This document shows positions 6,279-37,949 of a stretch of 64,000 bases of DNA, in pieces; the stretch's first letter is position 1, and each line of letters starts with the position of its first letter. Source of the DNA: Synechococcales cyanobacterium VAR_4_metabat_354 (lineage in GTDB: Bacteria > Cyanobacteriota > Cyanobacteriia > Cyanobacteriales > Chamaesiphonaceae); assembly GCA_031414775.1 (NCBI GenBank), contig JANOQI010000062.1:244691-308690 (forward strand), written 5' to 3'. The translations under genes and the position numbers were made by a program. The notes beneath the pieces are model-generated. The model ran no database searches and was not told where the DNA came from. It saw nothing but the letters and a program-made list of their open reading frames with translations.

Positions 6279-6288
6279 AGGAAAAGCG

Positions 6289-6318
6289 CCTTGGTGGTTC
6301 AAAAATCAACCACCAAGG
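6289..6318. repeat. 11-bp perfect inverted repeat (hairpin)
   Basis: CCTTGGTGGTT-N8-AACCACCAAGG. Confidence 0.6.
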
Positions 6319-6440
6319 TTTAGTCAGAAATACGCCTGTGATTTTAGAGATTTAAGACGATCGTGTAGCGGTAACAGGGTTAACCGGCACGGCCTATATG
6401 GCATGTTACAAAAGTTTGTAAAATACTAGGATTACACCTC

Positions 6441-6481
6441 ACTTTTTCTCACTGACAATACAATAGAGTCAGATGTAGTTT
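6441..6481 (+). promoter_or_regulatory. Putative promoter with the shared 17-bp element (protease cluster)
   Basis: ACTTTTTCTCACTGACA identical to 23908-23924; CTGACA-N18-TAGTTT. Confidence 0.6.
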
Positions 6482-6865
6482 ATAGTCATCAGTCTATATT
6501 TATACAGTCTACGAATATCCTGAATGTTAATGATTACATCGATTTTAGGGATGGGTAGGCGTTGACTCGCAATCATCCACCTCGCTGCTGATATTACAAA
6601 AAATCAATTGCTACAGAAATAGCAAAGTTTTTCGATTCTAATGATGGAAGCTGTTGAAACTATCTAGCCTGTAGACATGACCAACAGGTCGCAGCTTTTG
6701 GAGTTACTGCCAGGATGAATGGCTGAAGGTGAGGAAATAGTTGGTGGTTCGATCGCCAAGAAAGTTATTGCAGCTTTTAACCAAAATCAATTTTAGATAC
6801 CTAAATAAAATACGCTCTAATTCCATCATCAAAGTGATATCGATATAAAAGTTAAGAGGTTTAAA

Positions 6866-8779: not shown

Positions 8780-8808
8780 ACAATCTTCAATTATCAGGAG
8801 AATTAAAA

Positions 8809-9888
8809 ATGATTTTTTGTAACAATCCATCTTGCCACAATCCTCTCCATTGCTTTTTGCCACCGTATATCACCACTCGTCTAGCAGAGTCTGAAGATCC
8901 AGAAATTCGTCGCTTAGGTACTGAGGCTCTTGCTAATGACGCAGCCGCGCGGGCGGTTCGATCGACGTTTGCAGGGATGCCGATGATGGCAGCGATACCC
9001 TCTCCATCAGGCACTAAGAATCGTCTCATCTACGACATGAAAAACAAAGCACCTTTTCCGATTCTTCGTCCGGGAAAGCTAGTTCGTGCTGAAGGCGCAC
9101 CGCCAGTTGGGGGTGATGAAGCTGTCAATGAAGCATACGATCATGCCGGAATTACTTACGATTTTTACAAAGATATTTTCGGTCGTAATTCTTTGAACGA
9201 TCGTGGTATGTCACTGATTTCTAGTGTTCATTATGGTCGCCGTTATAACAACGCCTTTTGGGATGGAAAACAAATGGCATATGGAGATGGTGACGGACAA
9301 CTTTTTATCAGATTTACTAAGGCTTTAGATGTAGTTGCTCACGAGCTAACCCATGGCGTAGTTTCATTCACCAGTAACTTAGACTATGAGGACGAGTCTG
9401 GAGCATTAAACGAGCATTTTGCCGATGCATTTGGGGCGATGGTTAAGCAATGGCATCTCCAACAAGATGTGAATGCAGCTAACTGGTTAAATGGTGACAC
9501 CATTATGGGTTCAGGTACTACCGCCAAATGTATTCGCACCTTTAAAAAAGGAAAAGCCTACGAAAACGATCCCTTACTAGGTACCGATCCGCAGCCCAAA
9601 CACATCCACGATAAATACACTGGCGCTGATGATAATGGCGGCGTACATATTAACTCTGGCATTCCCAACCATGCTTTCTACCAAGTGGCGATGAAAATCG
9701 GCGGTAATTCTTGGGAGAAGACTGGCAAAATCTGGTATCAAACTCTCAAAAATCTCAATTCCCAAAGCCAGTTCCGAGAAGCAGCCAGTATGACTTATAT
9801 GGTCGCAGGTTCGCTATTTGGGGCTGGGAGTTCAGAACAGCAAGCCGTCAAAGATGGCTGGGGTGCTGTAGGAATTACTATTTCGTAG
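8809..9888 (+). CDS. M4 family protealysin-like metalloprotease
   Basis: Short propeptide with CFLPPYI; NNAFW, HELTH, LNEHFAD, GGVHINSGIPN. Confidence 0.92.
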   Translation: MIFCNNPSCHNPLHCFLPPYITTRLAESEDPEIRRLGTEALANDAAARAVRSTFAGMPMMAAIPSPSGTKNRLIYDMKNKAPFPILRPGKLVRAEGAPPVGGDEAVNEAYDHAGITYDFYKDIFGRNSLNDRGMSLISSVHYGRRYNNAFWDGKQMAYGDGDGQLFIRFTKALDVVAHELTHGVVSFTSNLDYEDESGALNEHFADAFGAMVKQWHLQQDVNAANWLNGDTIMGSGTTAKCIRTFKKGKAYENDPLLGTDPQPKHIHDKYTGADDNGGVHINSGIPNHAFYQVAMKIGGNSWEKTGKIWYQTLKNLNSQSQFREAASMTYMVAGSLFGAGSSEQQAVKDGWGAVGITIS

Positions 9889-10020
9889 GTTGGGTTGAAA
9901 AATGTTGCCATGGCATCGCCTGTGGCGACACAGAGCGAAGCAATTCAATATCCCCAGTGTTAAAGAATCCGTCACCAAAGTTAGTTTGGTGACGGCATAC
10001 CATCCAGAGGAAAAATCATC

Positions 10021-11244
10021 ATGGCAACCGACAAAAGTAAAAAGCAACTTTCCGATAAAGGAAAAGTTCGATTAGTAGCAGAAGCAATGGTTCAACTGCC
10101 CCCAGCAGTCGATCCGCCGATCTTAGGTTCCCGCACGCGGATTTGGAAACAAGACCCCTCGGTTAAAGAACTTGCCGTACCCAGAGATGTCTACATCCAC
10201 GCTCCAGTCAAAGAAGGCCCCAGTGACTCCCAAATTGTCATCAGAGGTTTATCACCAGTACCTCCAGACTTGAATCAAGATTTTCTGATCGATCCGGCTA
10301 GCGATGAAAAAGCTTTCGATGCGGTACATACTTACACCATCGTTCGCCAAGTGCTAACAATGTACCAGCGAGTTTTAGATCGTAAAATTCAGTGGCAATG
10401 GAATACAGCTACTAATCAAGAGCCAATATCAGTTCATCCCCAGGCAGGCAGAGCTGCCAATGCATACTATAGTCGTGATGAAAAAGTTTTAAAGTTCTTC
10501 TTTTTTAAACCTCGTAGTCAGCCAGTTGGCAGTCCTGATGTGTTTACCTGTCGCTCTCTAGACATAGTTGCTCACGAGACAGGGCACGCTATCTTAGATG
10601 CCCTAAAACCAAACTGGATTTTGAATAATACGCCAGCTCAAACAGGTGGATTGCATGAGTCTTTTGGGGATATAACTTCGATTTTCACGATCTTATCTCA
10701 ACTAGATTTAGTCGAATATATCATCACAGAAACCAAAGCCGATTTACATCGTCGCAATATCCTTGCCGTACTAGCAGAGCAATTTGGAAATGCGTTTGGG
10801 ATGCCAGAAGGTTTACGCAATGCTGATAATGACTTAAAACTCAGTCAGGTTAGTGACGAAGTTCATGATATTTCGCAGGTATTTACTGGGGCTGTTTATG
10901 ATATTCTGGCCGATATATTTACAGCTAATCGCAATCCTCGCGAACGGGATGATGCAGTTACTTTATATGAAACTGGTCAATATATGGCTGGTTTGATCAT
11001 TCGATCGATCGAAAAAGCTCCAGCTAATAATGCTATTTATGCAGATGTTGCCAAAGCAGCAATCGAGATTGCCACAGCTGATGGACATCCCAATTATGCC
11101 ATTTTCATTGAAAAGCATTTTACCTTGCGAGAAGTATTAGGTCCACAAGCCTTTGCGGAACATCCAAATTTGTCTCATCTGGGTATATATCCTAGTCGGC
11201 ATGGCTGTTGTGGCACTATGCAGCATCCAGAATATCAATCTTAA
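10021..11244 (+). CDS. Gluzincin zinc metalloprotease (M4/M36-like)
   Basis: NAYY, DIVAHETGHA, GLHESFGD, EVH. Confidence 0.75.
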   Translation: MATDKSKKQLSDKGKVRLVAEAMVQLPPAVDPPILGSRTRIWKQDPSVKELAVPRDVYIHAPVKEGPSDSQIVIRGLSPVPPDLNQDFLIDPASDEKAFDAVHTYTIVRQVLTMYQRVLDRKIQWQWNTATNQEPISVHPQAGRAANAYYSRDEKVLKFFFFKPRSQPVGSPDVFTCRSLDIVAHETGHAILDALKPNWILNNTPAQTGGLHESFGDITSIFTILSQLDLVEYIITETKADLHRRNILAVLAEQFGNAFGMPEGLRNADNDLKLSQVSDEVHDISQVFTGAVYDILADIFTANRNPRERDDAVTLYETGQYMAGLIIRSIEKAPANNAIYADVAKAAIEIATADGHPNYAIFIEKHFTLREVLGPQAFAEHPNLSHLGIYPSRHGCCGTMQHPEYQS

Positions 11245-11517
11245 TAGTTTCATTAAACTTCACCAGCAATAGTCGTGTTACCAGTAAAAACGATTGTTTT
11301 GACCTTTGCCATAGTTAGTGTGACTTTATTGACACAATTATTCCCTATGCTTAATCAATCTAGTTTAGGGAATATTTTTTCTTTCTCCCCAATATATAGG
11401 ACAAATTTAATTCAAGAAACTGAGAATGTGACATTTAATCGATCAAATGAAAATTTAGAATATTTGTCTCGTCTATCATTAAAGCAAAAATCGCCAATTA
11501 ATAAAGTGAAAAAGCAT

Positions 11518-11814
11518 ATGAAAATCAAGTTTCGTCAATCGGGAGGATATGCCGGGTTGCGGATGGGTTGCGATCTGGATACTAACTCATTAAGCATTGC
11601 TGAATCTACTCAATTAGAATCTTTAGTGGAAACTAGTGGTATTTTGCGAGCGAATAGCAGTCGTTCTAAAAATGCAGCAGATTTGATTAGTTACGAGATT
11701 ACGATCGAGACTAACGAGGGAATTCATCAGGTACAGCTTGATGATTCAACGTTACCTGAAAGTGTTTTTCCTTTGCTGGATTATCTGCAAAATCAAGCGA
11801 AGCCGCTGCAATAA
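11518..11814 (+). CDS. Emfourin-like protealysin inhibitor
   Basis: MKIKFRQSGGYAGL...ADLISYEITIE...LPES.PLLDYL; downstream of a protealysin-like gene; ATG 11518 preferred over ORF start 11275. Confidence 0.8.
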   Translation: MKIKFRQSGGYAGLRMGCDLDTNSLSIAESTQLESLVETSGILRANSSRSKNAADLISYEITIETNEGIHQVQLDDSTLPESVFPLLDYLQNQAKPLQ

Positions 11815-24053: not shown

Positions 24054-24788
24054 ATGAATACAAGTTCTGAGGGACTCTACCTGACGCTATTTCAGCGTCA
24101 ACTGCTACAGGAGAACATCCAAAAAGATTTGCCCAGATCCTATCGGCAACGACTGGAAATAATATTGCTGACTGATAACGGCAAAACTCAAGCAGAAATC
24201 TGCCGCATGATTGGGTGTTGCACATCGACAGCTAGTCGTTGGATTCAGCTAACCAAAGCGGGCTTGGCTCATAACTATTTAGATTGTCCGGTGGGTCGCC
24301 CCAAAATTGTGACTGATGAATACATCGAACTACTGCGAGAGTTGCTCCAGCACAGTCCTAGAGATTATGGTTACCCTTTTAGAACTTGGACAGTGAGTTG
24401 GCTAGGTAAACATATCACCAAAGTAATGGGCATTGAAGTCAGTGAGAGCCACCTGAAGCGGGTGATGCGCGATTTAGGATTGTCTACTCGATTACCGAAA
24501 TCACAGCCAGAGAAGTATAAACAACCGGGAGCCAACATCTTTATTGCTGATTTACCCCAGACTGCTGATGTGCCCAGACTCATTTCTGGCGATCCAGCAA
24601 GATCTACTGATGGCGATAATCACAGATCCATCTGCGATGAACGAGCAGAAAGCGAATTATCAGAATCCAACTTGCGTCAAATTAGAACAGAGCACCAGAT
24701 TTATGGCTCAGCATCATCTTTCACAACTTATTTCTTCCCAGCAGCTCGAAGAGGTTTTTCATATTACGCTCACCCCTGCCGAGTATAA
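24054..24788 (+). CDS. Helix-turn-helix protein (IS630-like winged HTH, no DDE domain), putative regulator
   Basis: TQAEICRMIGCCTSTASRW, GRPKIV, SPRDYGYPF.TWT..WL; heads the exporter operon. Confidence 0.75.
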   Translation: MNTSSEGLYLTLFQRQLLQENIQKDLPRSYRQRLEIILLTDNGKTQAEICRMIGCCTSTASRWIQLTKAGLAHNYLDCPVGRPKIVTDEYIELLRELLQHSPRDYGYPFRTWTVSWLGKHITKVMGIEVSESHLKRVMRDLGLSTRLPKSQPEKYKQPGANIFIADLPQTADVPRLISGDPARSTDGDNHRSICDERAESELSESNLRQIRTEHQIYGSASSFTTYFFPAARRGFSYYAHPCRV

Positions 24789-27420
24789 AAATTGTCTGAA
24801 TAAAGCTCAGTTAATTAGTCCTGATGTGGGTCAATTGTGGACAGTGCCGGATATTCAAACCGGCTTGTATATTGTCCTGAGCGGCAAGATCCGGCTATTA
24901 GATCATGATGATGAAATGATCGCGGCGCTCACCGCCGGACAGTATTTTGGAGAGTATACTTTTTTTGCGGCAGAAAACTTAGCTGTGTATACAGCGAGAG
25001 CCGGAGTGAATGTGCAGCTCTGTTGGGTACCGCCGGAAGTTCTGACATCATTGATCGACAAATATCCAATTATTCGCCAACAGCTGTGGGAAACTGCCCA
25101 AAAACGTTGTGAGCCTGGTAGCTCAGTCCCAGCGCAGCGCGTTGTCAACTCATCAGTTTTACCTAATTTGCCAGTATTGGAGTTGCCACCCGATCGATCG
25201 AGTAAAAAAATTAGTAAAGCCTACTTCCCCAATCCCCAACAAAGGGTTGGACACCTGTGGCAAAGGGTTACTCGCCGTTATCCTTTTTATGCTCAGCAGA
25301 GCGCTTCCGATTGTGGGGCAGCCTGTTTGGTCATGGTTGCTCGTTATTGGGGCAAGAAATTCAGTGTGAATCGGCTGCGGGAAATTGCCCATGTCGATCG
25401 CAATGGATCATCGCTCAAAGGTTTATCGGTAGCAGCAGAAAGTGTTGGTTTTACCACTCGTCCGATTAAAATCAGTCTCGACAGGCTAGCTCAACAGCCC
25501 TTGCCCGCGATCGTTCATTGGGAAGGTAAACATTACATTGTGGTGTATGCGGTGACTGCTAAACAGGTAATCGTAGCCGACCCAGCGCTGGGTCAACGTG
25601 CTCTTGGTCATGCAGAATTCAAAAAAGATTGGACGGGTTATGCCCTCATATTGCAACCTACTGCTCTACTCAAGGAAGCGGCAGAAAGTTCGACACCGTT
25701 TTGGCAGTTCTTTGAACTCCTCAAGCCCCACAGTGTGGTGGTAATTGAGATTTTTGTGGCTTCTTTATTCATTCAAATCTTTGGTTTGATTACGCCCCTA
25801 TTTACCCAGCTGATTTTGGATCAAGTGGTGGTGCAAAAATCGGAGTTGACCCTTTTCACCGTGGGCTTGGGGCTATTTATTTTCAGTATGTTTCGAGTCG
25901 CAATGATGGGTTTGCGCCAGTACTTGCTCGATCACACAGCCAATAAGTTAGATTTAGCGTTAATAGTGGCCTTCATTCGGCACACTATGCGACTGCCCCT
26001 GGGCTTTTTTGAATCACGATATGTGGGCGATATCATGTCTCGTGTGCAAGAAAATCAGAAAATTCAACGGCTATTATCTGGTGAAGCTACTACTATTTTG
26101 TTGGATCTGCTCACCGTCTTTGTTTATGTGGGACTGATGTTTTGGTATAGCTGGCAAATGGCTTTGGTGTCGTTGTTGATTGTACCGCCGTTCTTATTGT
26201 TGCCAATTATTGCCACTCCTTTTTTACGACGAATTTCACGAGAAATTTTCAGTGCCTATGCTGAGGAAAATAGCTATTTAATCCAAGCTTTGACTGGGAT
26301 TAAAACCGTGAAATCCACGGCAGTAGAACAAAACGTGCGCTGGAATTGGGAAGAGTTGTTTCATAAGGCAATTAAGACCAACTTTTCTGGACAGGTTATT
26401 AGTAACCGCCTGCAAATTTTCAGCAATACGATCAATGCCACTATTACCAGTGCCATGCTGTGTTTTGGAGCCTATCAAGTTATTCATAACCAACTGACGA
26501 TCGGACAGCTAGTAGCTTTCAACATGTTGCTTGGTAACATCATTCAACCTTTTCAACGTTTGACGGTGCTATGGAATCAACTGCAAGAGGTCGTGATTGC
26601 GGTGGAAAGGATTAATGATGTATTAGATGCTGAACCAGAGGAAGATCTACAACTACAGGCTCGCCAAACTCTGCCACCAATGCGGGGGCATATTCGCTTT
26701 GACAATGTGACTTTTCGCTATCATCCAGAAGGTGATGAAAATGTCTTGGAAAATCTGTCCTTTGAAGTCCAACCGGGTCAGATGGTGGCTTTAATTGGTC
26801 GGAGTGGCTCGGGGAAAACTACTATTTCCAAGTTAGCTCTGGGACTCTATCCAGCTACGGATGGGCGGATTCTGGTGGATGGTTACGATCTAGCCAGCTT
26901 GTCGCTACGCTCCCTCCGGCAACAAACCGGGGTGGTAGATCAAGATACCTTTATGTTTGGGGGCACTATTCGGGAGAATATTAGCCTCAGTCATCCCGGT
27001 GCCCCTCAATCTGCTGTCATCGAAGCTGCTAATCTGGCTGGTGCTGATGAATTCATCCGCAAATTACCGATGGGCTACGAAACCCAAATCGGTGAAGGTG
27101 GAGGTCTATTATCAGGCGGTCAACGCCAACGAATCGCGATCGCTCGTGCCTTAATGGGCAATCCGCCATTATTGATTATGGATGAAGCCACTTCTCATCT
27201 AGACCCGGAATCGGAACGGATTATTCAGCAAAGTTTAAGCACTATTTTAAAAGGGCGAACCACGCTAGTGATTGCCCATCGCCTCTCCACCATTCGTCAT
27301 GCTGACCAAATTTTGGTGATCGATCGAGGCATTTTGGTGGAGCAAGGTAGCCATCACGAGCTAATGAGCAAACGTGGTCATTACTACTATTTTAATCAGC
27401 AACAATTAGAGCCAGCCTAA
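24703..27420 (+). CDS. Peptidase-containing ABC transporter (cNMP-C39-TMD-NBD)
   Basis: QQSASDCGAACL, HWEGKHYIVV, VADPA; GRSGSGKT, LSGGQRQR, DEATSHLD; ATG 24703 preferred over ORF start 24544. Confidence 0.93.
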   Translation: MAQHHLSQLISSQQLEEVFHITLTPAEYKNCLNKAQLISPDVGQLWTVPDIQTGLYIVLSGKIRLLDHDDEMIAALTAGQYFGEYTFFAAENLAVYTARAGVNVQLCWVPPEVLTSLIDKYPIIRQQLWETAQKRCEPGSSVPAQRVVNSSVLPNLPVLELPPDRSSKKISKAYFPNPQQRVGHLWQRVTRRYPFYAQQSASDCGAACLVMVARYWGKKFSVNRLREIAHVDRNGSSLKGLSVAAESVGFTTRPIKISLDRLAQQPLPAIVHWEGKHYIVVYAVTAKQVIVADPALGQRALGHAEFKKDWTGYALILQPTALLKEAAESSTPFWQFFELLKPHSVVVIEIFVASLFIQIFGLITPLFTQLILDQVVVQKSELTLFTVGLGLFIFSMFRVAMMGLRQYLLDHTANKLDLALIVAFIRHTMRLPLGFFESRYVGDIMSRVQENQKIQRLLSGEATTILLDLLTVFVYVGLMFWYSWQMALVSLLIVPPFLLLPIIATPFLRRISREIFSAYAEENSYLIQALTGIKTVKSTAVEQNVRWNWEELFHKAIKTNFSGQVISNRLQIFSNTINATITSAMLCFGAYQVIHNQLTIGQLVAFNMLLGNIIQPFQRLTVLWNQLQEVVIAVERINDVLDAEPEEDLQLQARQTLPPMRGHIRFDNVTFRYHPEGDENVLENLSFEVQPGQMVALIGRSGSGKTTISKLALGLYPATDGRILVDGYDLASLSLRSLRQQTGVVDQDTFMFGGTIRENISLSHPGAPQSAVIEAANLAGADEFIRKLPMGYETQIGEGGGLLSGGQRQRIAIARALMGNPPLLIMDEATSHLDPESERIIQQSLSTILKGRTTLVIAHRLSTIRHADQILVIDRGILVEQGSHHELMSKRGHYYYFNQQQLEPA

Positions 27421-27433
27421 GGAAGGAATAGCC

Positions 27434-29125
27434 ATGTCTGATGCATTTTTTAATGGTCATCAAGTAGTCGATCGATCAATACCAGCAGAACCAGCCGAGA
27501 GCAATCAGCCCACCGCAGAAGACCCGCCACCAGCAATCGTTGAGGTGGTGGCTGACGATTGGTCAGACACTGCCAAAGAGGCGATGGAATCCTTGCCCCA
27601 AGTTTGGACACGGGGTTTACTCTATTTTTTGGTGATTTTTACCAGTATCATTCTGCCTTGGGTAATGTTATCAAAAGTGGATGAAACAGGTGCCGGACGA
27701 GGTCGAATTGAAACTAAGGGATCCTCTAATCGACTAGAAGCTGCCACTTCTGGGGCAGTGGTTGCGGTGCGGGTGCAAGAAGGCCAGTCGGTCAAGCAGG
27801 GACAGATTTTGTTAGAGCTAGAATCCGATGCCGTACGAGCCGAGCTTCAGCAAGCTAAAACCAAACTAGAAGGACAGATGAATCGGTTCTCGCAATTTGC
27901 CATTGCCAAGAATCAGGTAACGATTGCGATCGCTACTCAGCAGCAACAAAATAAAGCCCAATCAGTTGAAAAACTGGCGCAAGCGGAACAAGCCCAGCAA
28001 AGTTTGGCAGACAAGCAATCGAATGCTCCGTTGTCGGCCAATCTCAAGCTGACTCAAATAGACCAAGCTGGTAAGACCCTCAAGGATAGTAAAACCAACT
28101 TACTAATTCAACAAACCGAAAAAGCCGCCCAACTACGTCAAGCGCGTCAAAAATTAGCGGCGGCTCAAACCGCTTTAATTATCACAACTAGCAAACATGA
28201 ACAGAACCTGAAAGAAGTCCAACGCTATCAAGATCTAGCCGCAGAGGGTGGTATTCCAGAAGTGAAATTGGTAGAGATTAAAGGCATTGCTAAAGAGAGT
28301 GAACGTTTGGTGGCGCAGGCTAATGCGGAAGTGCAATTAGCGGCGACGGGGATTAAGGAACAAGAGGGTAACTACAATAAGGTGATTCACCAGCTGCAAG
28401 CGGATATTCGGCAAGCGGAATCGAAAACCCAGGAACAAGATCGGGAATATCGACAAATTAAAGAAAAACAAAAATGGGAGATTCGGCAGGCCGAATCACG
28501 GTTAAAGGAGCAGCAGGGAAATCGGGCTAGTTTGACGGAAGGGGGCAAGCTGGCGATTTTGAAAAGTGAAGAACAACTGAAAGATTTACAAACACAGATT
28601 AGTACTTTGAATACGGAAGCGGCACAGACGCGGCAGCAAATTGCCGAGTTAGAGCGGCAACTAGCACAAAAAGTAGTCAGGGCACCGGTGAGTGGAACTG
28701 TTTTGCAGTTGCCGTTTAAGCAACCGAAGTCTTTTGTGCAGACCGGCCAGTTAGTGGCACAGATTGCACCCCAGGGAGCTAGCACAATTCTGAAGGTGCA
28801 GATGCCGAGCCAGAGCACGGGGTTTTTGCGGGTGGGAATGCCGGTAAAGGTGAAGTTTGATGCTTACCCTTTCCAAGATTATGGGGTGGTGGAAGGTAAA
28901 GTGCAGTGGGTGTCCCCGGATTCTAAATTGGTGGAGGTGGGGACTGGCAAAATTGAGGCTTTTGAGGTGAATGTGGTGTTGGATAGAGATTATATCCAGT
29001 CACAGGGCAAGAAAATTGCTTTGACTTTGGGGCAGACAGGCACAGCGGAGGTGATTGTGCGGCAGCGACAGACGATCGATCTAATTCTTGATCCATTTAA
29101 GAAGTTGCAGCAGGGTGGGAAGTAA
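27434..29125 (+). CDS. HlyD family membrane fusion protein
   Basis: N-terminal TM, long coiled coil, VRAPVSGTV, KFDAYPFQDYG. Confidence 0.92.
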   Translation: MSDAFFNGHQVVDRSIPAEPAESNQPTAEDPPPAIVEVVADDWSDTAKEAMESLPQVWTRGLLYFLVIFTSIILPWVMLSKVDETGAGRGRIETKGSSNRLEAATSGAVVAVRVQEGQSVKQGQILLELESDAVRAELQQAKTKLEGQMNRFSQFAIAKNQVTIAIATQQQQNKAQSVEKLAQAEQAQQSLADKQSNAPLSANLKLTQIDQAGKTLKDSKTNLLIQQTEKAAQLRQARQKLAAAQTALIITTSKHEQNLKEVQRYQDLAAEGGIPEVKLVEIKGIAKESERLVAQANAEVQLAATGIKEQEGNYNKVIHQLQADIRQAESKTQEQDREYRQIKEKQKWEIRQAESRLKEQQGNRASLTEGGKLAILKSEEQLKDLQTQISTLNTEAAQTRQQIAELERQLAQKVVRAPVSGTVLQLPFKQPKSFVQTGQLVAQIAPQGASTILKVQMPSQSTGFLRVGMPVKVKFDAYPFQDYGVVEGKVQWVSPDSKLVEVGTGKIEAFEVNVVLDRDYIQSQGKKIALTLGQTGTAEVIVRQRQTIDLILDPFKKLQQGGK

Positions 29126-29176
29126 GTGCTGTCACATCTAGCTAATTGAATTAAACAAACCCAGGGACAATTTACG

Positions 29177-29914
29177 ATGACTATTAATACTGAAATTAGC
29201 AATGAAGATATTCTGGAGCAACTTAAGCTATCTTGCCGAATCCCAGAAATTACTGAACAGATTGTGGTGAGACGGATTATTCAGGAGGAGGCAGAAAAAG
29301 CCGAGATTAAGTTAGAGGTTAGTGAATTACAAGCGGCAGCGGATGATTTTCGAGCTAGGAATGGATTGACGAGTGCGAAGAGTACTCAAATGTGGTTGAG
29401 TATGAATCAACTTTCGCTAGATGAGTTTGAAAATATTGTGCGGTTGGAGCTGCTCGGCAACAAGCTCAAGGATGTGGTGCTTGCTGATCAGGTGGAAAAA
29501 TATTTTTATCAACATCAGTTGGAGTTCGATCGGGTGGCCTTGTCTGAGGTGATTTTAGAAAATAAGGAATTGGCGATGGAGTTGTACTATGCGGTGCGGG
29601 AGGGAGAGATAAGATTCCAAGATATTGCTGGTCAATATATTAAGGATGTGGATCTGCGCCGGAAGGGGGGATATTTAGGAGAAAGGCAGCGTAAAGATCT
29701 AAGTCCCGAGATGTTTTCGGTATTCTCGGTGGCAAATACACCGCAAATAATAAAGCCGATCGCCAGTGCTCAGGGATTTCGTTTGTTGTGGGTGGAGGAA
29801 GTTATTAAGGCGGAATTGGATGAAAAGATGTATGGAGAAATTAGGAACCAGCTTTTTGTGGAATATTTACGAAATAAGATCAAGGAATATAGTCAATCTC
29901 AGCCTCAATGGTAA
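29177..29914 (+). CDS. PpiC-type peptidylprolyl isomerase / export chaperone
   Basis: ELQAAADDFR, GGYLG...R.DL.PE; follows PCAT-HlyD. Confidence 0.8.
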   Translation: MTINTEISNEDILEQLKLSCRIPEITEQIVVRRIIQEEAEKAEIKLEVSELQAAADDFRARNGLTSAKSTQMWLSMNQLSLDEFENIVRLELLGNKLKDVVLADQVEKYFYQHQLEFDRVALSEVILENKELAMELYYAVREGEIRFQDIAGQYIKDVDLRRKGGYLGERQRKDLSPEMFSVFSVANTPQIIKPIASAQGFRLLWVEEVIKAELDEKMYGEIRNQLFVEYLRNKIKEYSQSQPQW

Positions 29915-30207: not shown

Positions 30208-30423
30208 TTAGTCGTCGCCAGGTTTCATTAAGCCGTCACGATCATATGGTGGTTCTGGATCTGGGAAAAATATATTGATAATTGCCCTACCTGCCGCAAC
30301 AATTCTGTCTACTATTCCTCCTCCTAAAATATTTTCAGCATCATCAGTGATGTCTATCAGGAAACTCTCTGAGTTGTTGAATGAATCAGAACCAGAAAGG
30401 TTGTTGATATTAATGTTAGCCAT
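30208..30423 (-). CDS. Double-glycine precursor peptide P1 (core lacks Ser/Thr/Cys)
   Basis: 35-aa leader MANININNLSGSDSFNNSESFLIDITDDAENILGG shared with four paralogs. Confidence 0.85.
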   Translation of the reverse strand: MANININNLSGSDSFNNSESFLIDITDDAENILGGGIVDRIVAAGRAIINIFFPDPEPPYDRDGLMKPGDD

Positions 30424-30803: not shown

Positions 30804-31031
30804 TTAACTACATGGGACGACCTTACCATCACTACTACAGACTGGTGGACCTACAACAAGGTCTCGAGAGCCGAAAAGTGTCTTGATTAATTTAACAGAT
30901 GCATCAACAATCGTTTCGACTATTCCTCCTCCTAAAACATCTTCAGCATCATCAGTGATGTCTATTATGTAGCTCTCTGAGTTCTTGAATGAATCAGAAC
31001 CAGAAAGGCTATTGATGTTAATGTTAGCCAT
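30804..31031 (-). CDS. Double-glycine precursor peptide P2
   Basis: Same 35-aa leader family; core has 5 Ser, 2 Thr, 2 Cys. Confidence 0.85.
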   Translation of the reverse strand: MANININSLSGSDSFKNSESYIIDITDDAEDVLGGGIVETIVDASVKLIKTLFGSRDLVVGPPVCSSDGKVVPCS

Positions 31032-31493: not shown

Positions 31494-31830
31494 TTGACTG
31501 AACCTCTGGGGTATATATTGTCTAATTTTCAATAGAATCAATCTGTTTCGATTCATCAGTACAATATAAACTCTGAACTTAATCGTGTCTATATTATTTG
31601 ATAAATTGCAGAGTGTATAATTCATGTATTTTTGATACGTTAATAAATGCATTTATTCTTCAGTAATTTTATTGTTTTAAACAACAAAATAACCCATGCA
31701 GATAGGCTGTTTCATCAAGTAAGTTGATAATCATCATTACTGTGAGTTTTATCTGTAGACATTGTCCACCCTAATTTAAAGTTCAACTTAAATACAGCCA
31801 GTAATAAATTACTACTGGCTATATTCACTA

Positions 31831-32034
31831 CTATACCGCGTAGATAATAATTACAGTTCCACTGCCAACGGCACCAGTATTGTAACAAGTCGGCCGTAAA
31901 CAACCTACGATGATGTCTGAATTTTTAGCTCCACCCATCACTTGTTCACTTTCATCGCTTAACTCCATCATAAAGCTTTCTGAATCAGAAAATAAGTCAT
32001 TTCCAGAAAGATTGCTAATTTTAATGTCAGCCAT
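31831..32034 (-). CDS. Double-glycine precursor peptide P4
   Basis: ATG 32034: MADIKISNLSGNDLFSDSESFMMELSDESEQVMGG|AKNSDIIVGCLRPTCYNTGAVGSGTVIIIYAV. Confidence 0.85.
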   Translation of the reverse strand: MADIKISNLSGNDLFSDSESFMMELSDESEQVMGGAKNSDIIVGCLRPTCYNTGAVGSGTVIIIYAV

Positions 32035-32270
32035 TTTATTTACTTCCTTTGTGTGTATGTTAGTTATGAATGGATAGGAGAGGAATATATTTCTCAATCC
32101 ATAAATACAATATAAATCACTGTCTTTCAGATATCTACTTATTATAAATTTTATATGCTAGATAATTAACACATTTTTAATCTCTATTAGCTACTAATTA
32201 ATTCAATAAAACAGCTCATCTTTAAAGATGAGCTAATAAGCTATAAACAGCTATTAAATATTAGATACTG

Positions 32271-32498
32271 TTATTTAGGACGAACAGTAACATATCCACA
32301 ACCAATATTAGTGACTACACAAGCAACAACAGTAACATATCCACAGGTATTGACTTCACAGTTGGTTTTAGTATTACGACAAGTAATCACCGCGCCGCCG
32401 ATTACAGCGACTGAATCATCACTGATTTCAGATATGAAACTTTCAGCATCATCGAATAAATTAGAACCAGATAGATTGATAATTTTAATATCAGCCAT
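32271..32498 (-). CDS. Double-glycine precursor peptide P5 (lanthipeptide-like core)
   Basis: Core AVITCRNTKTNCEVNTCGYVTVVACVVTNIGCGYVTVRPK: 7 Thr, 5 Cys. Confidence 0.88.
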   Translation of the reverse strand: MADIKIINLSGSNLFDDAESFISEISDDSVAVIGGAVITCRNTKTNCEVNTCGYVTVVACVVTNIGCGYVTVRPK

Positions 32499-32654
32499 TT
32501 TGTTTATTTCCTTTATGTAAATATTAGTTATGGATTAATATTTCACATCCATGAACACAATCATGAATCAACACTTTTCAAAAATCCATACCTTCCTGGA
32601 ATTTATTCGATGGATAATTTATATAATTTTGATCCGTTTCATCGTAAATTTACC

Positions 32655-35573
32655 TTATTCCCACAAAAGCACAGAAGGGATAGCATTAGGATCAGCTAGA
32701 CGCAACAATTGATAGCCCACCCCCGCAGCACCCTTATAAAAACTAGGACTATGCACATTGTCAGATAAATGCGATTGCAAACCATAGCTCCCATTTTGAA
32801 TCGCCGCCTTCACCACCTTAGTCCCATGTTGACGAGCAATTGTTAATAGTCGATCGTCCCCTAACTTTTCGGCAGCAACCAGCAACAGTTCAATTCTGCC
32901 CATATTGCCACAACATAAATGATCGAGCCAACCATCACTAACACCATTCTTCTGACTAGTCCGCAAGGCAATATCAATTTCTGCCTGAACCTCAGACAGC
33001 GGTAAAATCGGTAAACTGCCCAACCGCCCCAAACCAATCCCCGGACTACCATGACACCAAGTATTCCAACAAACCACTTCACCACCTGACGGTGAAGCGC
33101 CAAAATGGGGCCAATTTTGAGCTGTTCGATCGAACACACTCCGCTCATAAGCTATCCCTTCTTCAGCCGCCGCCCGAAATCCTTCATTTCCGCTAGCCGC
33201 ATAGAGTTGCAGCAGAGCAAAAGACATCCCCGCCGCCCCATGCGAAAAACCCGTTAGGGGTCGAGAACTTTCACCTTTGTGCATCAGCCATGCCCTCGGC
33301 AAAGCATCAGTACGATTAGCCAGTAAATGTTGACCACAACCGATCGCTATATCCAAAACAGTAGTATCTTGAGTAGCTTGATACAGCTGAAGCAAACCCA
33401 GCAACGCCCCTGTTGCCCCAAACACCACATCTAGCTTCCGATCGACAGCAATAATTGCTGGTGAAATCAGCCGAGCCGCTTGCAAAGCATCTGCTAATAG
33501 TGTCGGTTCATCTAAAAATTGACTGACCTTAACCATGGCATAGATAATGCCGCCTAATCCCAACAGTCCAATCTCCGCCTTAGCGAGTTCCGGTGGGATC
33601 TGGCCAGCCCGGATCGACGAGCGAAAAGGATGGAGCGCCGCCAGAGCCGTGCGTCGAAACTGGTTATCACCAGAAATTTGCGCCAAAGCTGCCAAAAATA
33701 GACTGACTCCGGCTCTCCCTGTAAAAAGAGAATCATTCAGGATGCTTAATTGATAGCGATTAGCAGCATACATATATTCGATCGATCGCCAGTTGCAACC
33801 ATCCCCCACCCAAATAGCCGACGCCACCATTTCCTGACCAATATCCAGAGCAGCGGCCTGGAATTCTACGGGCAACAGACAATTACCTAGAGGGAAATGT
33901 CCCTGGAGAGCAGTATCAATCTGTTTGAGATGTGCAAATTTGGCGATTGAGTTAGAGCTAATCAGCTGTAATTGCCGAGCTAGATCGGTTTCATCGAGTT
34001 GTTGCAATCGATCGATCATTTGCTGATCACCAACAGAAGCCCAGAAATGATTGATGGTAGTTTTTTGATCGATCGCCAGACTATCTTGACTACAGACTGC
34101 CATAAAGCGGGGGAAATCTTGTTTTTGGAGCGCCGCAATTTCGGCAGCAAAAATTTTTTTAGCTGCTGGATGGTTGGCCAGCGGCCAATAACTAGGAGCA
34201 TGTTCCTTGATTAGATAACTAATCAGACTCTCATAAGTATCGTTATCCCTTAAGTAATCTGGTTTGAGACTCTGCCGACAGATCGTTTGGTAAGCATGAC
34301 GTGGCCTTAGATAACAACCAAATGTGAGCTGAGAGAAACTCGCGAGGGGACTATTTAACCCGACCAGAGTTGCTCGATGCTGGATGAGTAGTCGATAAAT
34401 TTCTTGGAAACCAACTGCGATCGCATTGGTATAATCTTTTGCTGAAACCGTTTCACCATCAAAAATCACGGCGTTTTTACCCGCTGGCACTATTACCGAT
34501 GTCCGCACCAAATTCATGCGATCGGTATTAATAAATTGCCACTCCTGAGCCGCTCCATTTTGCTTGGGCAAAACATTGCCCAATACGCTGGTATCCCAAG
34601 CATTCCGAGCTTCCAGCTGGCCACTCCAACGCGGTAGAATCCCCGTTTTTAGCACCGAGTCATGAAACCATCGCTGCTCCTTTTCTATGGCAATGAATTC
34701 TGGATTCATCAACGCAGCCGCATTGATCAACAGCGGGTGTTCACCAGCAGCAACTACATGATCATGCTCGCAATCTTTCGTTCCCAGCACCCATAATAGT
34801 GCCGACAACATGCCTGCTCTCTGATAAAAGTGCTGTACATGCGATCGGGTTTCACAGGCTTGTTGTTTAATTAACTCCTGCCAACCATAACCCTCGCCAG
34901 CTAACATTTTTAATGGCTGGAATGGCAGTGAAATACTTTGCTGATTGCACCAGGCCAATAATTCCTGGAAAGCTATATCCAGACTCAAATTCTTGGGTTT
35001 GTATACCAGCTCTATCCCCGAGGTAAACGTGAGAGTCAAGATCGATCGACATCCTGATGATTGATCGGATAGATTGGTAGCAATCCCAATGACTTTTCCT
35101 AAACTATGGCCATCATTAAAAGTCTCCTCCAATTTGAGAAAATCAGCAGCGAGACGTTCTAAAAATTCAGCGGTAGATTCCACCCACAAATCAATAGTGG
35201 TATTTATCAGATTTTCTAAAACTGGATAGTCCCGAAATAAGGCAATCCTTCCATCCAATAACCCGTCTATAAAGCTGTTATACAGAGAATAATCTGGGAG
35301 ATCAGTGTCTGGTAATTGCCCACAGCGCAGCCGATCAAATTCATACAATAAGACCTCCGCACCCAATCCTACCAATGTTTCTAATAAATTACGCTCTAAG
35401 GCTACATAGGCTTCTTCCGTCAATAATTTGATTTGAGTAGCAGAGAGTAAATCATGCAAATTGCGTCGGCCTGTTTGCACAAATGATAGATAAAAATTTT
35501 CAAATGGCAAAGGTTGATCTAGGTTGATCAGCGATATCTTTGCTAGCAAAGTTTCCAGCTTTTTTGTTTCCAT
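32655..35573 (-). CDS. lanM: LanM-type lanthipeptide synthetase with degenerate dehydratase and intact LanC-like cyclase
   Basis: LVYKPK, GYGW, FYQRAGML; cyclase motifs GFSHGAAG, WCHGSPG, HLCCGNMG. Confidence 0.9.
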   Translation of the reverse strand: METKKLETLLAKISLINLDQPLPFENFYLSFVQTGRRNLHDLLSATQIKLLTEEAYVALERNLLETLVGLGAEVLLYEFDRLRCGQLPDTDLPDYSLYNSFIDGLLDGRIALFRDYPVLENLINTTIDLWVESTAEFLERLAADFLKLEETFNDGHSLGKVIGIATNLSDQSSGCRSILTLTFTSGIELVYKPKNLSLDIAFQELLAWCNQQSISLPFQPLKMLAGEGYGWQELIKQQACETRSHVQHFYQRAGMLSALLWVLGTKDCEHDHVVAAGEHPLLINAAALMNPEFIAIEKEQRWFHDSVLKTGILPRWSGQLEARNAWDTSVLGNVLPKQNGAAQEWQFINTDRMNLVRTSVIVPAGKNAVIFDGETVSAKDYTNAIAVGFQEIYRLLIQHRATLVGLNSPLASFSQLTFGCYLRPRHAYQTICRQSLKPDYLRDNDTYESLISYLIKEHAPSYWPLANHPAAKKIFAAEIAALQKQDFPRFMAVCSQDSLAIDQKTTINHFWASVGDQQMIDRLQQLDETDLARQLQLISSNSIAKFAHLKQIDTALQGHFPLGNCLLPVEFQAAALDIGQEMVASAIWVGDGCNWRSIEYMYAANRYQLSILNDSLFTGRAGVSLFLAALAQISGDNQFRRTALAALHPFRSSIRAGQIPPELAKAEIGLLGLGGIIYAMVKVSQFLDEPTLLADALQAARLISPAIIAVDRKLDVVFGATGALLGLLQLYQATQDTTVLDIAIGCGQHLLANRTDALPRAWLMHKGESSRPLTGFSHGAAGMSFALLQLYAASGNEGFRAAAEEGIAYERSVFDRTAQNWPHFGASPSGGEVVCWNTWCHGSPGIGLGRLGSLPILPLSEVQAEIDIALRTSQKNGVSDGWLDHLCCGNMGRIELLLVAAEKLGDDRLLTIARQHGTKVVKAAIQNGSYGLQSHLSDNVHSPSFYKGAAGVGYQLLRLADPNAIPSVLLWE

Positions 35574-35592
35574 GATTTATTTTGGTGTATCC

Positions 35593-36696
35593 TCAGCCGA
35601 TCACCCGATAAATATCTTTAGAACCACTATTAAGATGTGGATGCTGCAAATCTATTCCTACCAAGGAGAACTGCTCTGAAATCGCGTTTATCCTCTCTCT
35701 ATAAGAGTTTCGACCTTGATGAAATAACTCCAGCAACCCATTAGCCACAATTTGACAACGATTCATCCCGAAACTTTCCCGCTCCGCAAACTTCTGATCT
35801 GGCTCCTCCGCCAGTCCTAAACCAAGTGCCAGTTGCTTAGTGAACAAAGGAATCTTCGGGATAAAATGCGACTGGTGTTCTATATAAATACCATCTAAAA
35901 CGCGTAGCACAACTTCATAATCTTGCCAGTCAAAATACAGCACCCCCGAATCAAAACGATTGTAGTCTTTTGGGTTATACAAAACCTTGAAACTAAAAGG
36001 AATACCGACTGCATTTAACTCCTGGGTCACACTCTTCATCACAGCGATCGATCCCGCTGCCGTCACATTAAAATAAATCCGCACCAAAGCATCCCCTGGC
36101 TGCGGACGACTAAAACCCAAATTACCGACAGCCATATAGAACCCATTCTGCATCCGGTTTTTGGGCATCTTAATTGCCACCAAATCCCCCACCGACACTT
36201 GCTGCTCTGTTTCTTTTAAATGCTTGTCCTGCCTAATATGTAGCCGTAAACTACCATTTTTGATAGCCAAACTACCATCTTCCTCTTCCTTCAACACCGT
36301 CCAGCCCCCATCAAAATAACCCTCCCCGCAGTTACTATCATGCAATTGCTGGAAAAAAGCCGTATCAATGCCCATGACTGTATTATTTTCTAAATCTAGC
36401 TGCACCGGCTGATCTGGTGCATCCAAAGCCAATGAACTGCGCATCGCACCGTTATAGTAAATGCCATACAAAAAACTGCGTAACTGCAAACTCAAAAACT
36501 TTTGTTGCATCTGCTCCGGCATCTTTTGAAACCGCTCCACCGCCTCCGCTGGAATCTCCAGCGGCTTATAACTAGGGTGATGAATCGAAAAATCATCCCG
36601 AATTTCCACATTCCGAGCAATATCCTCCAACACCGTCATCAGCTCAGTATAAGCCGCAGTATCAGACTTGGTTGAAATAGCATCTAGTGTTTGCAT
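35593..36696 (-). CDS. HopA1-family protein (putative phospho-Ser/Thr lyase, LanY/TvaD-like)
   Basis: VRIYFN, FSFKVL, RFDSGVLYF, PLFTK.LA.GLGLAEEP, ESFGMNRC; adjacent to a phosphotransferase. Confidence 0.82.
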   Translation of the reverse strand: MQTLDAISTKSDTAAYTELMTVLEDIARNVEIRDDFSIHHPSYKPLEIPAEAVERFQKMPEQMQQKFLSLQLRSFLYGIYYNGAMRSSLALDAPDQPVQLDLENNTVMGIDTAFFQQLHDSNCGEGYFDGGWTVLKEEEDGSLAIKNGSLRLHIRQDKHLKETEQQVSVGDLVAIKMPKNRMQNGFYMAVGNLGFSRPQPGDALVRIYFNVTAAGSIAVMKSVTQELNAVGIPFSFKVLYNPKDYNRFDSGVLYFDWQDYEVVLRVLDGIYIEHQSHFIPKIPLFTKQLALGLGLAEEPDQKFAERESFGMNRCQIVANGLLELFHQGRNSYRERINAISEQFSLVGIDLQHPHLNSGSKDIYRVIG

Positions 36697-36800
36697 AGTT
36701 TTAGTAGTTATTAATAATTAATGTAAGAGCCAAAGCTAGAATCTAATAATTTTGGCAACTTCAAGATTGACCGTAAAATAGCGGCCAGAAAACCCCAACC

Positions 36801-37949
36801 TCAAACCGTTACCAGCACTTGAGGTACCATCAATTGCCCCCCAAACACCGTCGGCATCGACTGCACCGGACGACACAACAACGACTTCGCCACCTGCAAC
36901 TGAGCAATTCCCGCATTTCCCAACGTCTTTTGGTATTGAATCGCCGCCTCAATCCCCTGAATCAAAGCCAACCCGGCAAACTGCACCGTCCTTTCCAAAA
37001 AATCAGGTCGATCGATCAAAATCTGTGGAAAAGCTTGCAAATAAGCTTGAGTCAAAACCGCGATCGAAGGTTGTACCTGATCTAATGGAGTCATCGCCAA
37101 AGCTAAAGACTCCTCGATCGACAGCGACTTACTGACCACCAAACTCCCCAACCATATTTGCAAATAACTACCAATTAAAGTCCCCAAATCAAATGCCGGA
37201 TCGCCCCAAGCCGATCGCTCCCAATCAATCAGCCGCGCCATCCCACTCGTCGGTTGTTCCCAATCATTGTGCAGCAGGACATTATTCAGCTTGAGGTCGT
37301 TATGAGTCAAACAATCCGCCGTAAAAGCCTCGCCCAGCTCTACCAAGGCCTGACCCAAACTGTCGTAGCGCTGATACAAAGCATAAAACTTCAAACCATC
37401 ATCTGGCACCGCACCAAAGATCTCTGGAGTTAAACGCTCCAATCCCCGAATCATTCTTTGGACAATGCTTGTTTCGGATCGGAGCGGGTTTCGATCGATC
37501 GCTTCCTGATAGTCCGATCGCTGATAGGTATCCCGATGGAAAGTAGCCAACAAAGCCCCCAGTTTTTGGGCGATGCGATCGGAAAAGGTATTTTCCTTGG
37601 CATAAAAGCTCATCAAGTCCTGATATTCATTCAGATATTTAAATATCAGAATCGAGTTCTCGGCATCAAAATGGAGTACTTCCGAAACAAAAGGTTGCCA
37701 GTGCTGCAATGATGAAAAATTTCGCATCAATTCCTGCACTTGCCATTCTGACAAAAACTCCCCGATGGCTTTTCCTTCTTGGTTGTGGCGTTCCTGCTTT
37801 ACTAGAAGCTTTGAGTCTTGAGCTAACGTAATTAACAAGTTAAAGTTCTTTGCCGACACTGGTTCGATATTATCAGTGGTGCTTTCTGAGTGGTAGCCCA
37901 GATCGGCCAAGTACTCAAAGACATTCGTTTGATTTAGTAGAAATACCAT
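36801..37949 (-). CDS. APH-like phosphotransferase (LanK/TvaC-like peptide kinase)
   Basis: KNFNLL, LLVKQE, LTHNDLKLNNVL, LIDWE...WGDPAFDLG. Confidence 0.85.
   Translation of the reverse strand: MVFLLNQTNVFEYLADLGYHSESTTDNIEPVSAKNFNLLITLAQDSKLLVKQERHNQEGKAIGEFLSEWQVQELMRNFSSLQHWQPFVSEVLHFDAENSILIFKYLNEYQDLMSFYAKENTFSDRIAQKLGALLATFHRDTYQRSDYQEAIDRNPLRSETSIVQRMIRGLERLTPEIFGAVPDDGLKFYALYQRYDSLGQALVELGEAFTADCLTHNDLKLNNVLLHNDWEQPTSGMARLIDWERSAWGDPAFDLGTLIGSYLQIWLGSLVVSKSLSIEESLALAMTPLDQVQPSIAVLTQAYLQAFPQILIDRPDFLERTVQFAGLALIQGIEAAIQYQKTLGNAGIAQLQVAKSLLCRPVQSMPTVFGGQLMVPQVLVTV

What the first reader, a model, noticed from the sequence alone, without database searches (positions are those of the whole stretch)
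32655..37949. Hybrid lanthipeptide machinery: LanM with a dead dehydratase paired with a stand-alone kinase and HopA1 lyase
Seen: in the LanM N-domain the usual SDxH reads SDQS (about 35060), DxHxEN reads DCEHDH (34758-34775), IDxET reads INAAA (34713-34727) and the elimination motif RxxxRxT reads GCYLRPR (about 34300-34320). The frame is intact, and the cyclase keeps GFSHG, WCHG and the ProcM-type CCG ligands. Directly upstream on the same strand are an intact APH-like kinase (HNDLKLNN, DWE) and a HopA1-family protein. Knowledge: those LanM residues mediate phosphorylation and elimination in LctM/CylM, and kinase plus HopA1-lyase pairs are the split dehydratase of class V lanthipeptides and thioamitides. 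No HFCD decarboxylase or YcaO gene is in the window. Inference: dehydration is outsourced to LanK/LanY-like enzymes and LanM serves as a zinc cyclase with a pseudo-enzyme (perhaps leader-binding) domain. That fits none of classes I-V cleanly. I cannot verify that it is unpublished.
Basis: partly seen in the sequence, partly recalled or inferred. Interest (0 to 1): 0.9.

Follow-up and report, generated by a model that had tools for sequence, protein, structure and literature searches.

The report
Lanthipeptide enzyme reduced to ring-closer
In this cyanobacterial peptide gene cluster, an enzyme that normally both dehydrates and cyclises peptides has lost its dehydrating chemistry and most likely now only closes the sulfur rings, while a neighbouring kinase and lyase take over dehydration, an arrangement shared by a whole branch of related enzymes.

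Summary
Observation confirmed. The LanM (32655-35573, minus strand) keeps 3 of 10 dehydratase residues mapped from CylM, but keeps its zinc-cyclase motifs. The upstream kinase and HopA1-family lyase have intact catalytic motifs, and the lyase model matches LxmY. This is not strain-specific decay. The LanM belongs to a cyanobacterial clade in which 2 of 48 dereplicated members keep both catalytic residue sets, against 124 of 131 other LanMs; zinc ligands are near-invariant. The altered domain is under purifying selection (dN/dS 0.16-0.23). 21 of 26 clade loci have kinase+lyase within 10 kb, against 0 of 51 other LanMs in a phylum sample. Precursor cores there are Cys-rich (47 of 57 with two or more Cys, against 19 of 150 at kinase+lyase loci without LanM). 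Best reading: class Vb logic (LanK/LanY dehydrate, a zinc cyclase closes rings), with a LanM-derived pseudo-dehydratase-cyclase in place of LanC. Not found described in ten literature searches. No activity was tested, and the role of the dead domain is unresolved. New variant; interest 0.62.

The parts
36801..37949 (-). LanK-like stand-alone Ser/Thr kinase, 382 aa (K51, H216-x-D218-x-K220-x-x-N223, D242-W-E244)
   Evidence: PF01636 E=3e-11; best NCBIfam hit LxmK NF038156 at 103 bits, below its cut-off of 315; best PDB hit LxmK 9DK1_A, E=9e-4; motif residues conserved in 90-94 of 94 homologues
35593..36696 (-). LanY-like HopA1-family phospho-Ser/Thr lyase, 367 aa (R206, K237, R247, Y254)
   Evidence: PF17914 E=2e-57; PDB LxmY 9DK1_B E=6e-7; model pLDDT 87.5 matches LxmY at Foldseek E=1e-18; residue spacing matches CaoY R187/K219/R229/Y236 (inferred from spacing, CaoY not aligned); conserved in 92-97 of 98 homologues
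33894..35573 (-). LanM N-terminal pseudo-dehydratase domain (residues 1-560), 3 of 10 catalytic residues kept, about 100 N-terminal residues shorter than longer clade members
   Evidence: PF13575 E=1e-101; alignment to CylM and LicM2; dN/dS 0.16-0.23
32655..33893 (-). LanM C-terminal LanC-like zinc cyclase domain (H778, C840, C887, C888); the only LanC domain in the genome
   Evidence: PF05147 E=2e-56; full-length model pLDDT 91.4, best fold matches LicM2 and CylM
32271..32498 (-). Precursor P5: 35-aa GG leader, 40-aa core with 5 Cys and 7 Thr; main candidate substrate
   Evidence: core identical in L081, all 5 Cys kept in L082
31831..32034 (-). Precursor P4: core with 2 Cys, 2 Ser, 3 Thr
   Evidence: similar cores in L085, L090, L200
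31329..31493 (-). Precursor P3: hydrophobic 19-aa core, no Cys, 1 Thr
30804..31031 (-). Precursor P2: core with 2 Cys, 5 Ser, 2 Thr
30208..30423 (-). Precursor P1: core with no Cys, Ser or Thr, so not a substrate for this chemistry
24544..27420 (+). cNMP-binding/C39-peptidase ABC exporter (PCAT), likely cleaves the GG leader and exports the peptide
   Evidence: PF00027, PF03412, PF00664, PF00005; putative catalytic C257 and H330 present (motif recalled)
27434..29125 (+). HlyD-family adaptor
29177..29914 (+). PpiC-type rotamase-like protein, usual companion of these clusters
   Evidence: PF00639; TIGR04500 at 86 bits, below cut-off; present in most related loci
24054..24788 (+). HTH protein in front of the exporter, recurring in related clusters; possible regulator

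Best explanation
A cyanobacterial lanthipeptide pathway with class Vb logic and a repurposed class II enzyme. (1) GG-leader precursors are made in a small array (shown: genes). (2) The LanK-like kinase phosphorylates core Ser/Thr and the LanY-like lyase eliminates phosphate, giving Dha/Dhb (inferred from homology, fold and intact catalytic residues; shown experimentally for CaoK/CaoY and LxmK/LxmY). (3) The LanM zinc cyclase domain adds core Cys to Dha/Dhb, up to five methyllanthionines in P5 (inferred from conserved ligands and Cys-rich cores). (4) The LanM dehydratase domain no longer phosphorylates or eliminates in this copy (inferred from CylM mutagenesis). It is kept as a folded non-catalytic module: leader recognition (my estimate about 45%), structural support of the cyclase (about 40%) or docking on the kinase-lyase pair (about 15%). 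(5) The C39 exporter removes the leader and exports the peptide (inferred). Historically, a LanM joined the widespread kinase+lyase cassette, its dehydratase became redundant and then eroded by different substitutions in different lineages.
For: Six residues that PMC4550811 names for phosphorylation or elimination are changed, including N352, D364 and T512, whose Ala mutants gave no dehydration or no elimination (passages read). The clade is resolved in the N-domain tree (61 of 203 rows, FastTree support 1.0) and nearly so in the cyclase tree (56 rows at 0.95, with L087 as sister at 1.0). After 90% dereplication both catalytic sets are intact in 2 of 48 clade members against 124 of 131 others. 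Of 53 N-domain columns conserved outside the clade, the 43 non-catalytic ones are retained at 92% on average and the 10 catalytic ones at 56%. H778, C840, C887 and C888 are kept in 45/45, 45/45, 46/46 and 45/46. dN/dS of the N-domain is 0.16-0.23 and of the cyclase 0.12-0.15 among the three closest orthologues. Kinase+lyase lie within 10 kb at 21 of 26 clade loci, against 0 of 51 non-clade LanMs in a phylum sample, 44 of them with 5 kb or more upstream held. Cores with two or more Cys: 47 of 57 at clade loci against 19 of 150 at kinase+lyase loci without LanM. The genome has no other LanM or LanC domain.
Against: No activity was measured. Erosion is graded: P0021 and P0022 keep 9 of 10 residues and 5 of 48 members keep all five phosphorylation residues, so part of the clade may still dehydrate. 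L087 carries a clade LanM but neither kinase nor HopA1 was found in its assembly (contig ends 1.3 kb upstream, completeness not given). At L095 and L140 the pair is not adjacent, only elsewhere in the genome. Most kinase+lyase loci have no LanM: 3 of 111 HopA1 matches lie beside one. 12 of 65 LanM-free loci still have a core with two or more Cys and two or more Ser/Thr. Class Va rings can form without a cyclase. LanM remnants at L009 and L020 and frameshifts at L085 show the gene is dispensable in some lineages. The genomes are related, so the counts are not independent. The loss of most capping helices weakens the leader-binding step.
Confidence: 0.74

Rival explanations
1. Kinase+lyase make the product alone (linear dehydro-peptides, or rings that close spontaneously as in class Va). 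The LanM is a passenger or acts on something else.
For: Most cyanobacterial kinase+HopA1 loci lack LanM. Substrate-controlled cyclisation is described for class Va. LanM fragments at L009, L020 and L085.
Against: Purifying selection on both domains, near-invariant zinc ligands, and Cys enrichment that tracks the LanM.
Confidence: 0.11
2. This LanM is still a (weak or partial) dehydratase using altered residues; the kinase+lyase are redundant or serve other precursors.
For: D170, K192 and D267 are kept. The fold is intact. Some clade members keep 8-9 of 10 residues. Intact LanMs do occur 3 kb from kinase+lyase at L064 and L073.
Against: Both metal ligands (N352, D364) and three of four elimination residues are gone. 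The replacements differ among the closest orthologues, so they do not form a new conserved site. The L064/L073 LanMs lie outside the clade and each follows its own precursor with a different leader.
Confidence: 0.06
3. The cyclase domain is active, but it adds thiols in another way (free thiol or intermolecular addition to Dha/Dhb, as LanC-like proteins can; recalled), or the Cys-rich cores end up as disulfides or metal binders.
For: Several clade cores have adjacent Cys pairs and few Ser/Thr. LanCL proteins are among the fold matches.
Against: At 21 of 21 clade loci with a detectable precursor, at least one core has two or more Cys and two or more Ser/Thr. The domain is a regular LanM cyclase by sequence.
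Confidence: 0.07
4. Recent, strain-specific decay of an ordinary class II LanM.
For: The window's copy is among the most eroded and is N-terminally shortened.
Against: An open frame of the same length in orthologues at dS 0.5-0.6, dN/dS far below 1, and the same pattern across a 48-member clade.
Confidence: 0.02

Closest known systems
Class Vb lanthipeptide system (SmoA with LanK/LanY/LanC; Pei et al. 2022, known here only through PMC12291118 and PMC12328550)
   Same: Stand-alone kinase (PF01636) and lyase (PF17914) plus a zinc LanC-type cyclase; no Cys decarboxylase in the cluster.
   Different: The cyclase is the C-domain of a 972-aa LanM with a 560-aa pseudo-dehydratase attached, not a stand-alone LanC. 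The host is a cyanobacterium; the review says class V products have been found only in actinobacteria. GG leaders, multiple precursors, C39 exporter.
Class II LanM (CylM 5DZT, LicM2 6ST5; ProcM-type CCG ligands, recalled)
   Same: DUF4135+LANC architecture, TIGR03897 at 787 bits against a cut-off of 304, same fold.
   Different: 7 of 10 dehydratase residues changed and most capping helices missing; it travels with LanK/LanY, which the 51 ordinary LanMs sampled did not.
Class Va lanthipeptides and thioamitides (LxmK/LxmY, CaoK/CaoY, TsaC/TsaD)
   Same: Same split dehydratase; the lyase fold matches LxmY.
   Different: No LanD, LanX or YcaO in the cluster; rings are presumably enzyme-made by a zinc cyclase.
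Cyanobacterial 'Family 1A' (Eyles 2021, PMC8153245) / 'type-B' (Liang 2022, PMC9486802) kinase+HopA1 clusters
   Same: Kinase+HopA1 pair, multiple precursors with a conserved GG leader and variable cores.
   Different: [quoted passage not shown] They do not mention a LanM with an eroded dehydratase. Products uncharacterised.
Dehydratase-only LanMs (for example the Pseudanabaena LanM lacking zinc ligands, PMC11356792)
   Same: Half-active LanM.
   Different: Mirror image: there the cyclase is lost and the precursor has no Cys.

Membership tests
Class II lanthipeptide synthetase (LanM) | Fused DUF4135 dehydratase + LanC-like cyclase architecture | tested here: met
Class II lanthipeptide synthetase (LanM) | Phosphorylation residues K274, D347, H349, N352, D364 (CylM) | tested here: not met
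   K and D347 kept; H349, N352, D364 replaced by E, H, N
Class II lanthipeptide synthetase (LanM) | Elimination residues D252, H254, R506, T512 (CylM) | tested here: not met
   D252 kept; others S, G, R
Class II lanthipeptide synthetase (LanM) | Zinc ligands of the cyclase | tested here: met
   C840, C887, C888 and H778; Cys in place of the CylM His ligand, as in 89 of 125 non-clade homologues
Class II lanthipeptide synthetase (LanM) | One enzyme suffices for dehydration and cyclisation | not testable with these tools
   needs an assay
Class V lanthipeptide system | Stand-alone LanK kinase (PF01636) with catalytic residues | tested here: met
   note NF038156 (LxmK equivalog) 103 bits is below its cut-off of 315
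Class V lanthipeptide system | Stand-alone LanY lyase (PF17914) with catalytic Arg/Lys/Arg/Tyr | tested here: met
   equivalence to CaoY residues inferred from spacing; CaoY H57 equivalent not mapped
Class V lanthipeptide system | LanK-LanY heterodimer | not tested
Class V lanthipeptide system | (Methyl)lanthionine in the product | not testable with these tools
   P5, P4 and P2 have Cys and Ser/Thr; chemistry not shown
Class Va / thioamitide | LanD flavoprotein, LanX, or YcaO in the cluster | tested here: not met
Class Vb | Stand-alone LanC cyclase | tested here: not met
   the only LANC_like match in the genome is the LanM C-domain
Cyanobacterial Family 1A / type-B clusters | Kinase+HopA1 with multiple GG-leader precursors | tested here: inconclusive
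   matches the text description; their sequence logos and lists were not seen (supplement search gave no hits)

The most novel reading that the evidence does not exclude
An undescribed clade of cyclase-only pseudo-LanMs defines a cyanobacterial branch of class V lanthipeptides. It shows a hand-over in progress: members range from 9 of 10 to 2 of 10 catalytic residues, and the dead kinase-fold domain is kept under selection to recognise the leader or dock on the LanK-LanY pair. It would be the mirror image of dehydratase-only LanMs and would supply the missing ring-forming enzyme for the Cys-rich subset of the widespread cyanobacterial kinase+HopA1 clusters.
Probability: 0.55. Interest if true: 0.75.

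Novelty: new variant of a known kind. Interest (0 to 1): 0.62.

Why it matters
Annotation pipelines call these genes ordinary class II LanMs, so expressing LanM with a precursor would probably give nothing and the clusters would be written off. If the reading holds, it predicts how to make the first cyanobacterial class V-type lanthipeptides. It offers a natural zinc cyclase uncoupled from dehydration, which is useful for peptide engineering and for asking what the LanM dehydratase domain contributes to cyclisation. It also gives a graded natural series for pseudo-enzyme evolution. The chemistry itself is not new.

Tried and rejected
Complex prediction of LanM residues 1-560 with P5 residues 1-45 gave no answer (score 0.01, mark 0.32); not used either way. 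No RNA holder was listed. The promoter scan was at chance level (23 found, 22 expected). No Pfam or NCBIfam family matched the precursors, and the Atlas gave only hits under 0.9 for P5. A single-sequence locus search with the LanM N-domain found only one locus; the alignment search was needed. My first residue score took R423 for CylM R506; corrected to position 419 from then on, so the window scores 3 of 10, not 4. L064 and L073 were considered as counter-examples and set aside because their LanMs lie outside the clade and follow their own different-leader precursor. MppM of Moorena is active alone but has a Nif11-type leader and no kinase/lyase is named among its cluster genes; its sequence was not compared. 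The HopA1 tree is a quick tree only. Pei et al. 2022 is not held in the library, so I could not check whether it mentions LanM-containing clusters. Rows dropped: sequences with under 300 aligned N-domain columns; L153-L155, short divergent DUF4135 proteins without a cyclase, from the outgroup (they score 1 of 10); nine of the first 80 loci with LanM or LanM fragments from the 'no LanM' group.
Full report
1. What is there. The window is cyanobacterial (phylum search). On the minus strand lie a kinase (36801-37949), a HopA1-family protein (35593-36696), a LanM (32655-35573, starting 19 bases after the HopA1 stop) and five short genes with a shared 35-residue leader ending in Gly-Gly (P5 to P1, 32498-30208). 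Converging on them from the plus strand are an HTH gene, a C39-peptidase ABC exporter, HlyD and a PpiC-like gene (24054-29914). The LanM is the only LanM and the only LanC-like domain in the genome. There is no YcaO match, and the two flavoprotein matches are on other contigs.

2. The observation. Every motif is at the stated place. PMC4550811 (passages) names K274, D347, H349, N352 and D364 of CylM for phosphorylation and D252, H254, R506 and T512 for elimination. Ala mutants of D347, N352 and D364 gave no dehydration, and T512A no elimination. Counting along the alignment to CylM, the window protein keeps D252, K274 and D347 and has S, E, H, N, G and R at H254, H349, N352, D364, R506 and T512, plus A at E366. 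The model is confident (pLDDT 91.4) and its best fold matches are LicM2 and CylM, so the fold is kept while the active site is not. It also lacks about 100 N-terminal residues that longer clade members have (YKPK at 191 against about 295). These correspond to most of the CylM capping helices, residues 5-131.

3. The partners look active. The kinase keeps K51, D218, N223, D242 and E244, each conserved in 90-94 of 94 homologues; its best PDB hit is LxmK, weakly. The HopA1 model matches LxmY at E=1e-18, TM 0.63-0.73. R206, K237, R247 and Y254 have the spacing of CaoY R187, K219, R229 and Y236 (31-10-7 against 32-10-7). CaoY R187, K219 and R229 were tested by mutagenesis (PMC9486802, passages). 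This equivalence is inferred from spacing; CaoY itself was not aligned.

4. A clade, not a broken gene. Among 120 homologues and LanMs from fetched loci, the window protein falls in a clade of 61 of 203 rows (support 1.0, long stem). After dereplication at 90% identity, and dropping three short cyclase-less outgroup rows, both catalytic sets are complete in 2 of 48 clade members and 124 of 131 others (Ser accepted for T512). Clade members keep 2 to 9 of the 10 residues, with different replacements in different branches. Non-catalytic conserved columns of the same domain are retained at 92% on average (43 columns) against 56% for the catalytic ones (10). The cyclase ligands are better kept inside the clade (45/45, 46/46, 45/46) than outside (111/124, 115/125, 89/125). 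Codon counts among the three closest orthologues give dN/dS 0.16-0.23 for the N-domain and 0.12-0.15 for the cyclase; six other pairs give 0.22-0.37 and 0.18-0.43 (simple counting method). The domain is therefore maintained as a protein.

5. It travels with kinase and lyase. All clade loci were retrieved with LanM queries. Counting repeats once and including the window, 21 of 26 have both genes within 10 kb. This count includes one locus split over two contigs of one assembly (L001+L081), one with the kinase cut by the contig end (L039) and one with frameshifts in HopA1 and LanM (L085). Of the other five, L094 has HopA1 at a contig end. L095 and L140 have the pair elsewhere in the genome. L098 ends 1.3 kb upstream and its genome has six HopA1 matches. 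In the assembly holding L087 neither gene was found, which counts against my reading unless the assembly is incomplete. In a 401-genome phylum sample, 0 of 51 non-clade LanM genes had a kinase or HopA1 hit in the stretch fetched (about 8 kb each side; 44 had at least 5 kb upstream), while 2 of 3 clade genes did. The reverse link is loose: 3 of 111 HopA1 matches lie beside a LanM, so LanM is an accessory module. On a quick HopA1 tree the LanM-bearing loci need 9 changes, at least 5 forced by well-supported branches, which implies repeated loss or gain. Related genomes are not independent, so no P value is claimed.

6. The substrates change with the LanM. With a profile of the shared leader, 47 of 57 distinct cores at clade loci (22 loci given, 21 with precursors) have two or more Cys, against 19 of 150 at kinase+lyase loci without LanM (73 given, 65 with precursors); Cys content is 8.2% against 2.3%. 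The clade set includes one mis-split and one run-on core, and some 'no LanM' loci are short contigs. P5 has 5 Cys and 7 Thr; all five Cys are kept in the L082 orthologue. P1 has no Cys, Ser or Thr, and P3 no Cys.

7. Mechanism. Kinase and lyase make Dha/Dhb, the LanM cyclase closes thioether rings, and the exporter cleaves the leader and secretes (0.74; all catalytic steps inferred). Why the dead domain stays is open. In HalM2 the dehydratase domain is the principal leader-binding site (PMC12537861, passages), which favours leader recognition. But that paper places one leader contact next to the capping helices, most of which this copy lacks, and in class V the kinase binds the leader. A structural role is about as likely.

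8. Comparison with what is known. LanK + LanY + LanC is class Vb (PMC12291118 and PMC12328550, passages; the primary paper was not available). The system therefore works like class Vb, but fails its stand-alone LanC criterion, and its LanM fails the class II catalytic criteria. Cyanobacterial kinase+HopA1 clusters were catalogued as Family 1A (PMC8153245, passages and section 16) and type-B. Those passages mention LanC-like neighbours for 20% of HopA1 proteins, but no LanM with an eroded dehydratase. Ten full-text searches listed no paper describing this clade. The library lacks most subscription papers, and the Eyles supplement search found no hits in the two files held, so supplements I could not see may bear on novelty. 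Other papers seen as passages only: PMC12141560 (also section 10), PMC11791876, PMC11356792, PMC10880069, PMC12599244 (42, not relevant), PMC11667668 (88, one reference line). The label 'ProcM-type CCG' is recalled. An earlier AI note from another genome reached the same idea (e1-7819649); it is not independent evidence.

9. Verdict. A real, conserved feature. A new variant of a known kind: class Vb logic with a pseudo-LanM cyclase in cyanobacteria. Interest 0.62; directly testable with one co-expression series.

Noticed in passing
window 31566-32700 vs L081:2789-3923: The stretch holding P5 and P4 is 95.9% identical over 1135 bases between the two genomes, although their LanM genes differ at dS about 0.5. 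This suggests recent exchange of the precursor cassette.
   Followed up: partly
window 31831-32034; L085:7818-8048, L090:13322-13549, L200:4592-4816: The P4 core type (Cys-x-x-Pro/Asn-Thr-Cys ... Gly-Ser/Gln-x-Thr-Val/Ile-Ile) recurs at several clade loci, unlike the usually variable cores.
   Followed up: no
window 24054-24788: The HTH gene scores only with the N-terminal part of IS630 transposases, but recurs in front of the exporter in many related clusters; more likely a cluster regulator than a mobile element.
   Followed up: partly
L156:8448-17298 (G000 contig C16): A second kinase+HopA1+exporter cluster in the same genome, without LanM, with a divergent lyase and a Gly/Lys/Ser-rich precursor; a similar precursor at L158.
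   Followed up: partly
L209, L199, L200 (G533) and L201, L202 (G559): Expanded clusters with three and two clade LanMs behind one kinase+lyase pair, many precursors and interspersed PpiC fragments.
   Followed up: partly
L097:7385-9526: Two TenA/heme-oxygenase-like genes inserted between HopA1 and LanM behind their own precursor; possible extra tailoring enzymes.
   Followed up: partly
L157:8754-11255: An 834-aa natural kinase-HopA1 fusion.
   Followed up: no
L153:7640-9499, L154:8791-10674, L155:2241-3488: Short (about 620 aa) DUF4135 proteins without a cyclase and with 1 of 10 catalytic residues: a second, separate kind of pseudo-dehydratase.
   Followed up: no
L009:7931-8586, L020:12082-12471, L085:2910-7535: LanM remnants or frameshifts behind kinase+HopA1, pointing to repeated loss of the module.
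   Followed up: partly
L082:7608-15951: The closest orthologous cluster has six precursors, different flanking genes and no exporter within the DNA held; 2 of 9 same-genus genomes sampled carry the LanM.
   Followed up: partly
window 4689-11814: A run of PAP2-superfamily protein (haloperoxidase-like motif, recalled), HAD-M28 peptidase fusion, M4 peptidase, an unassigned metallopeptidase-like gene and an emfourin inhibitor.
   Followed up: no
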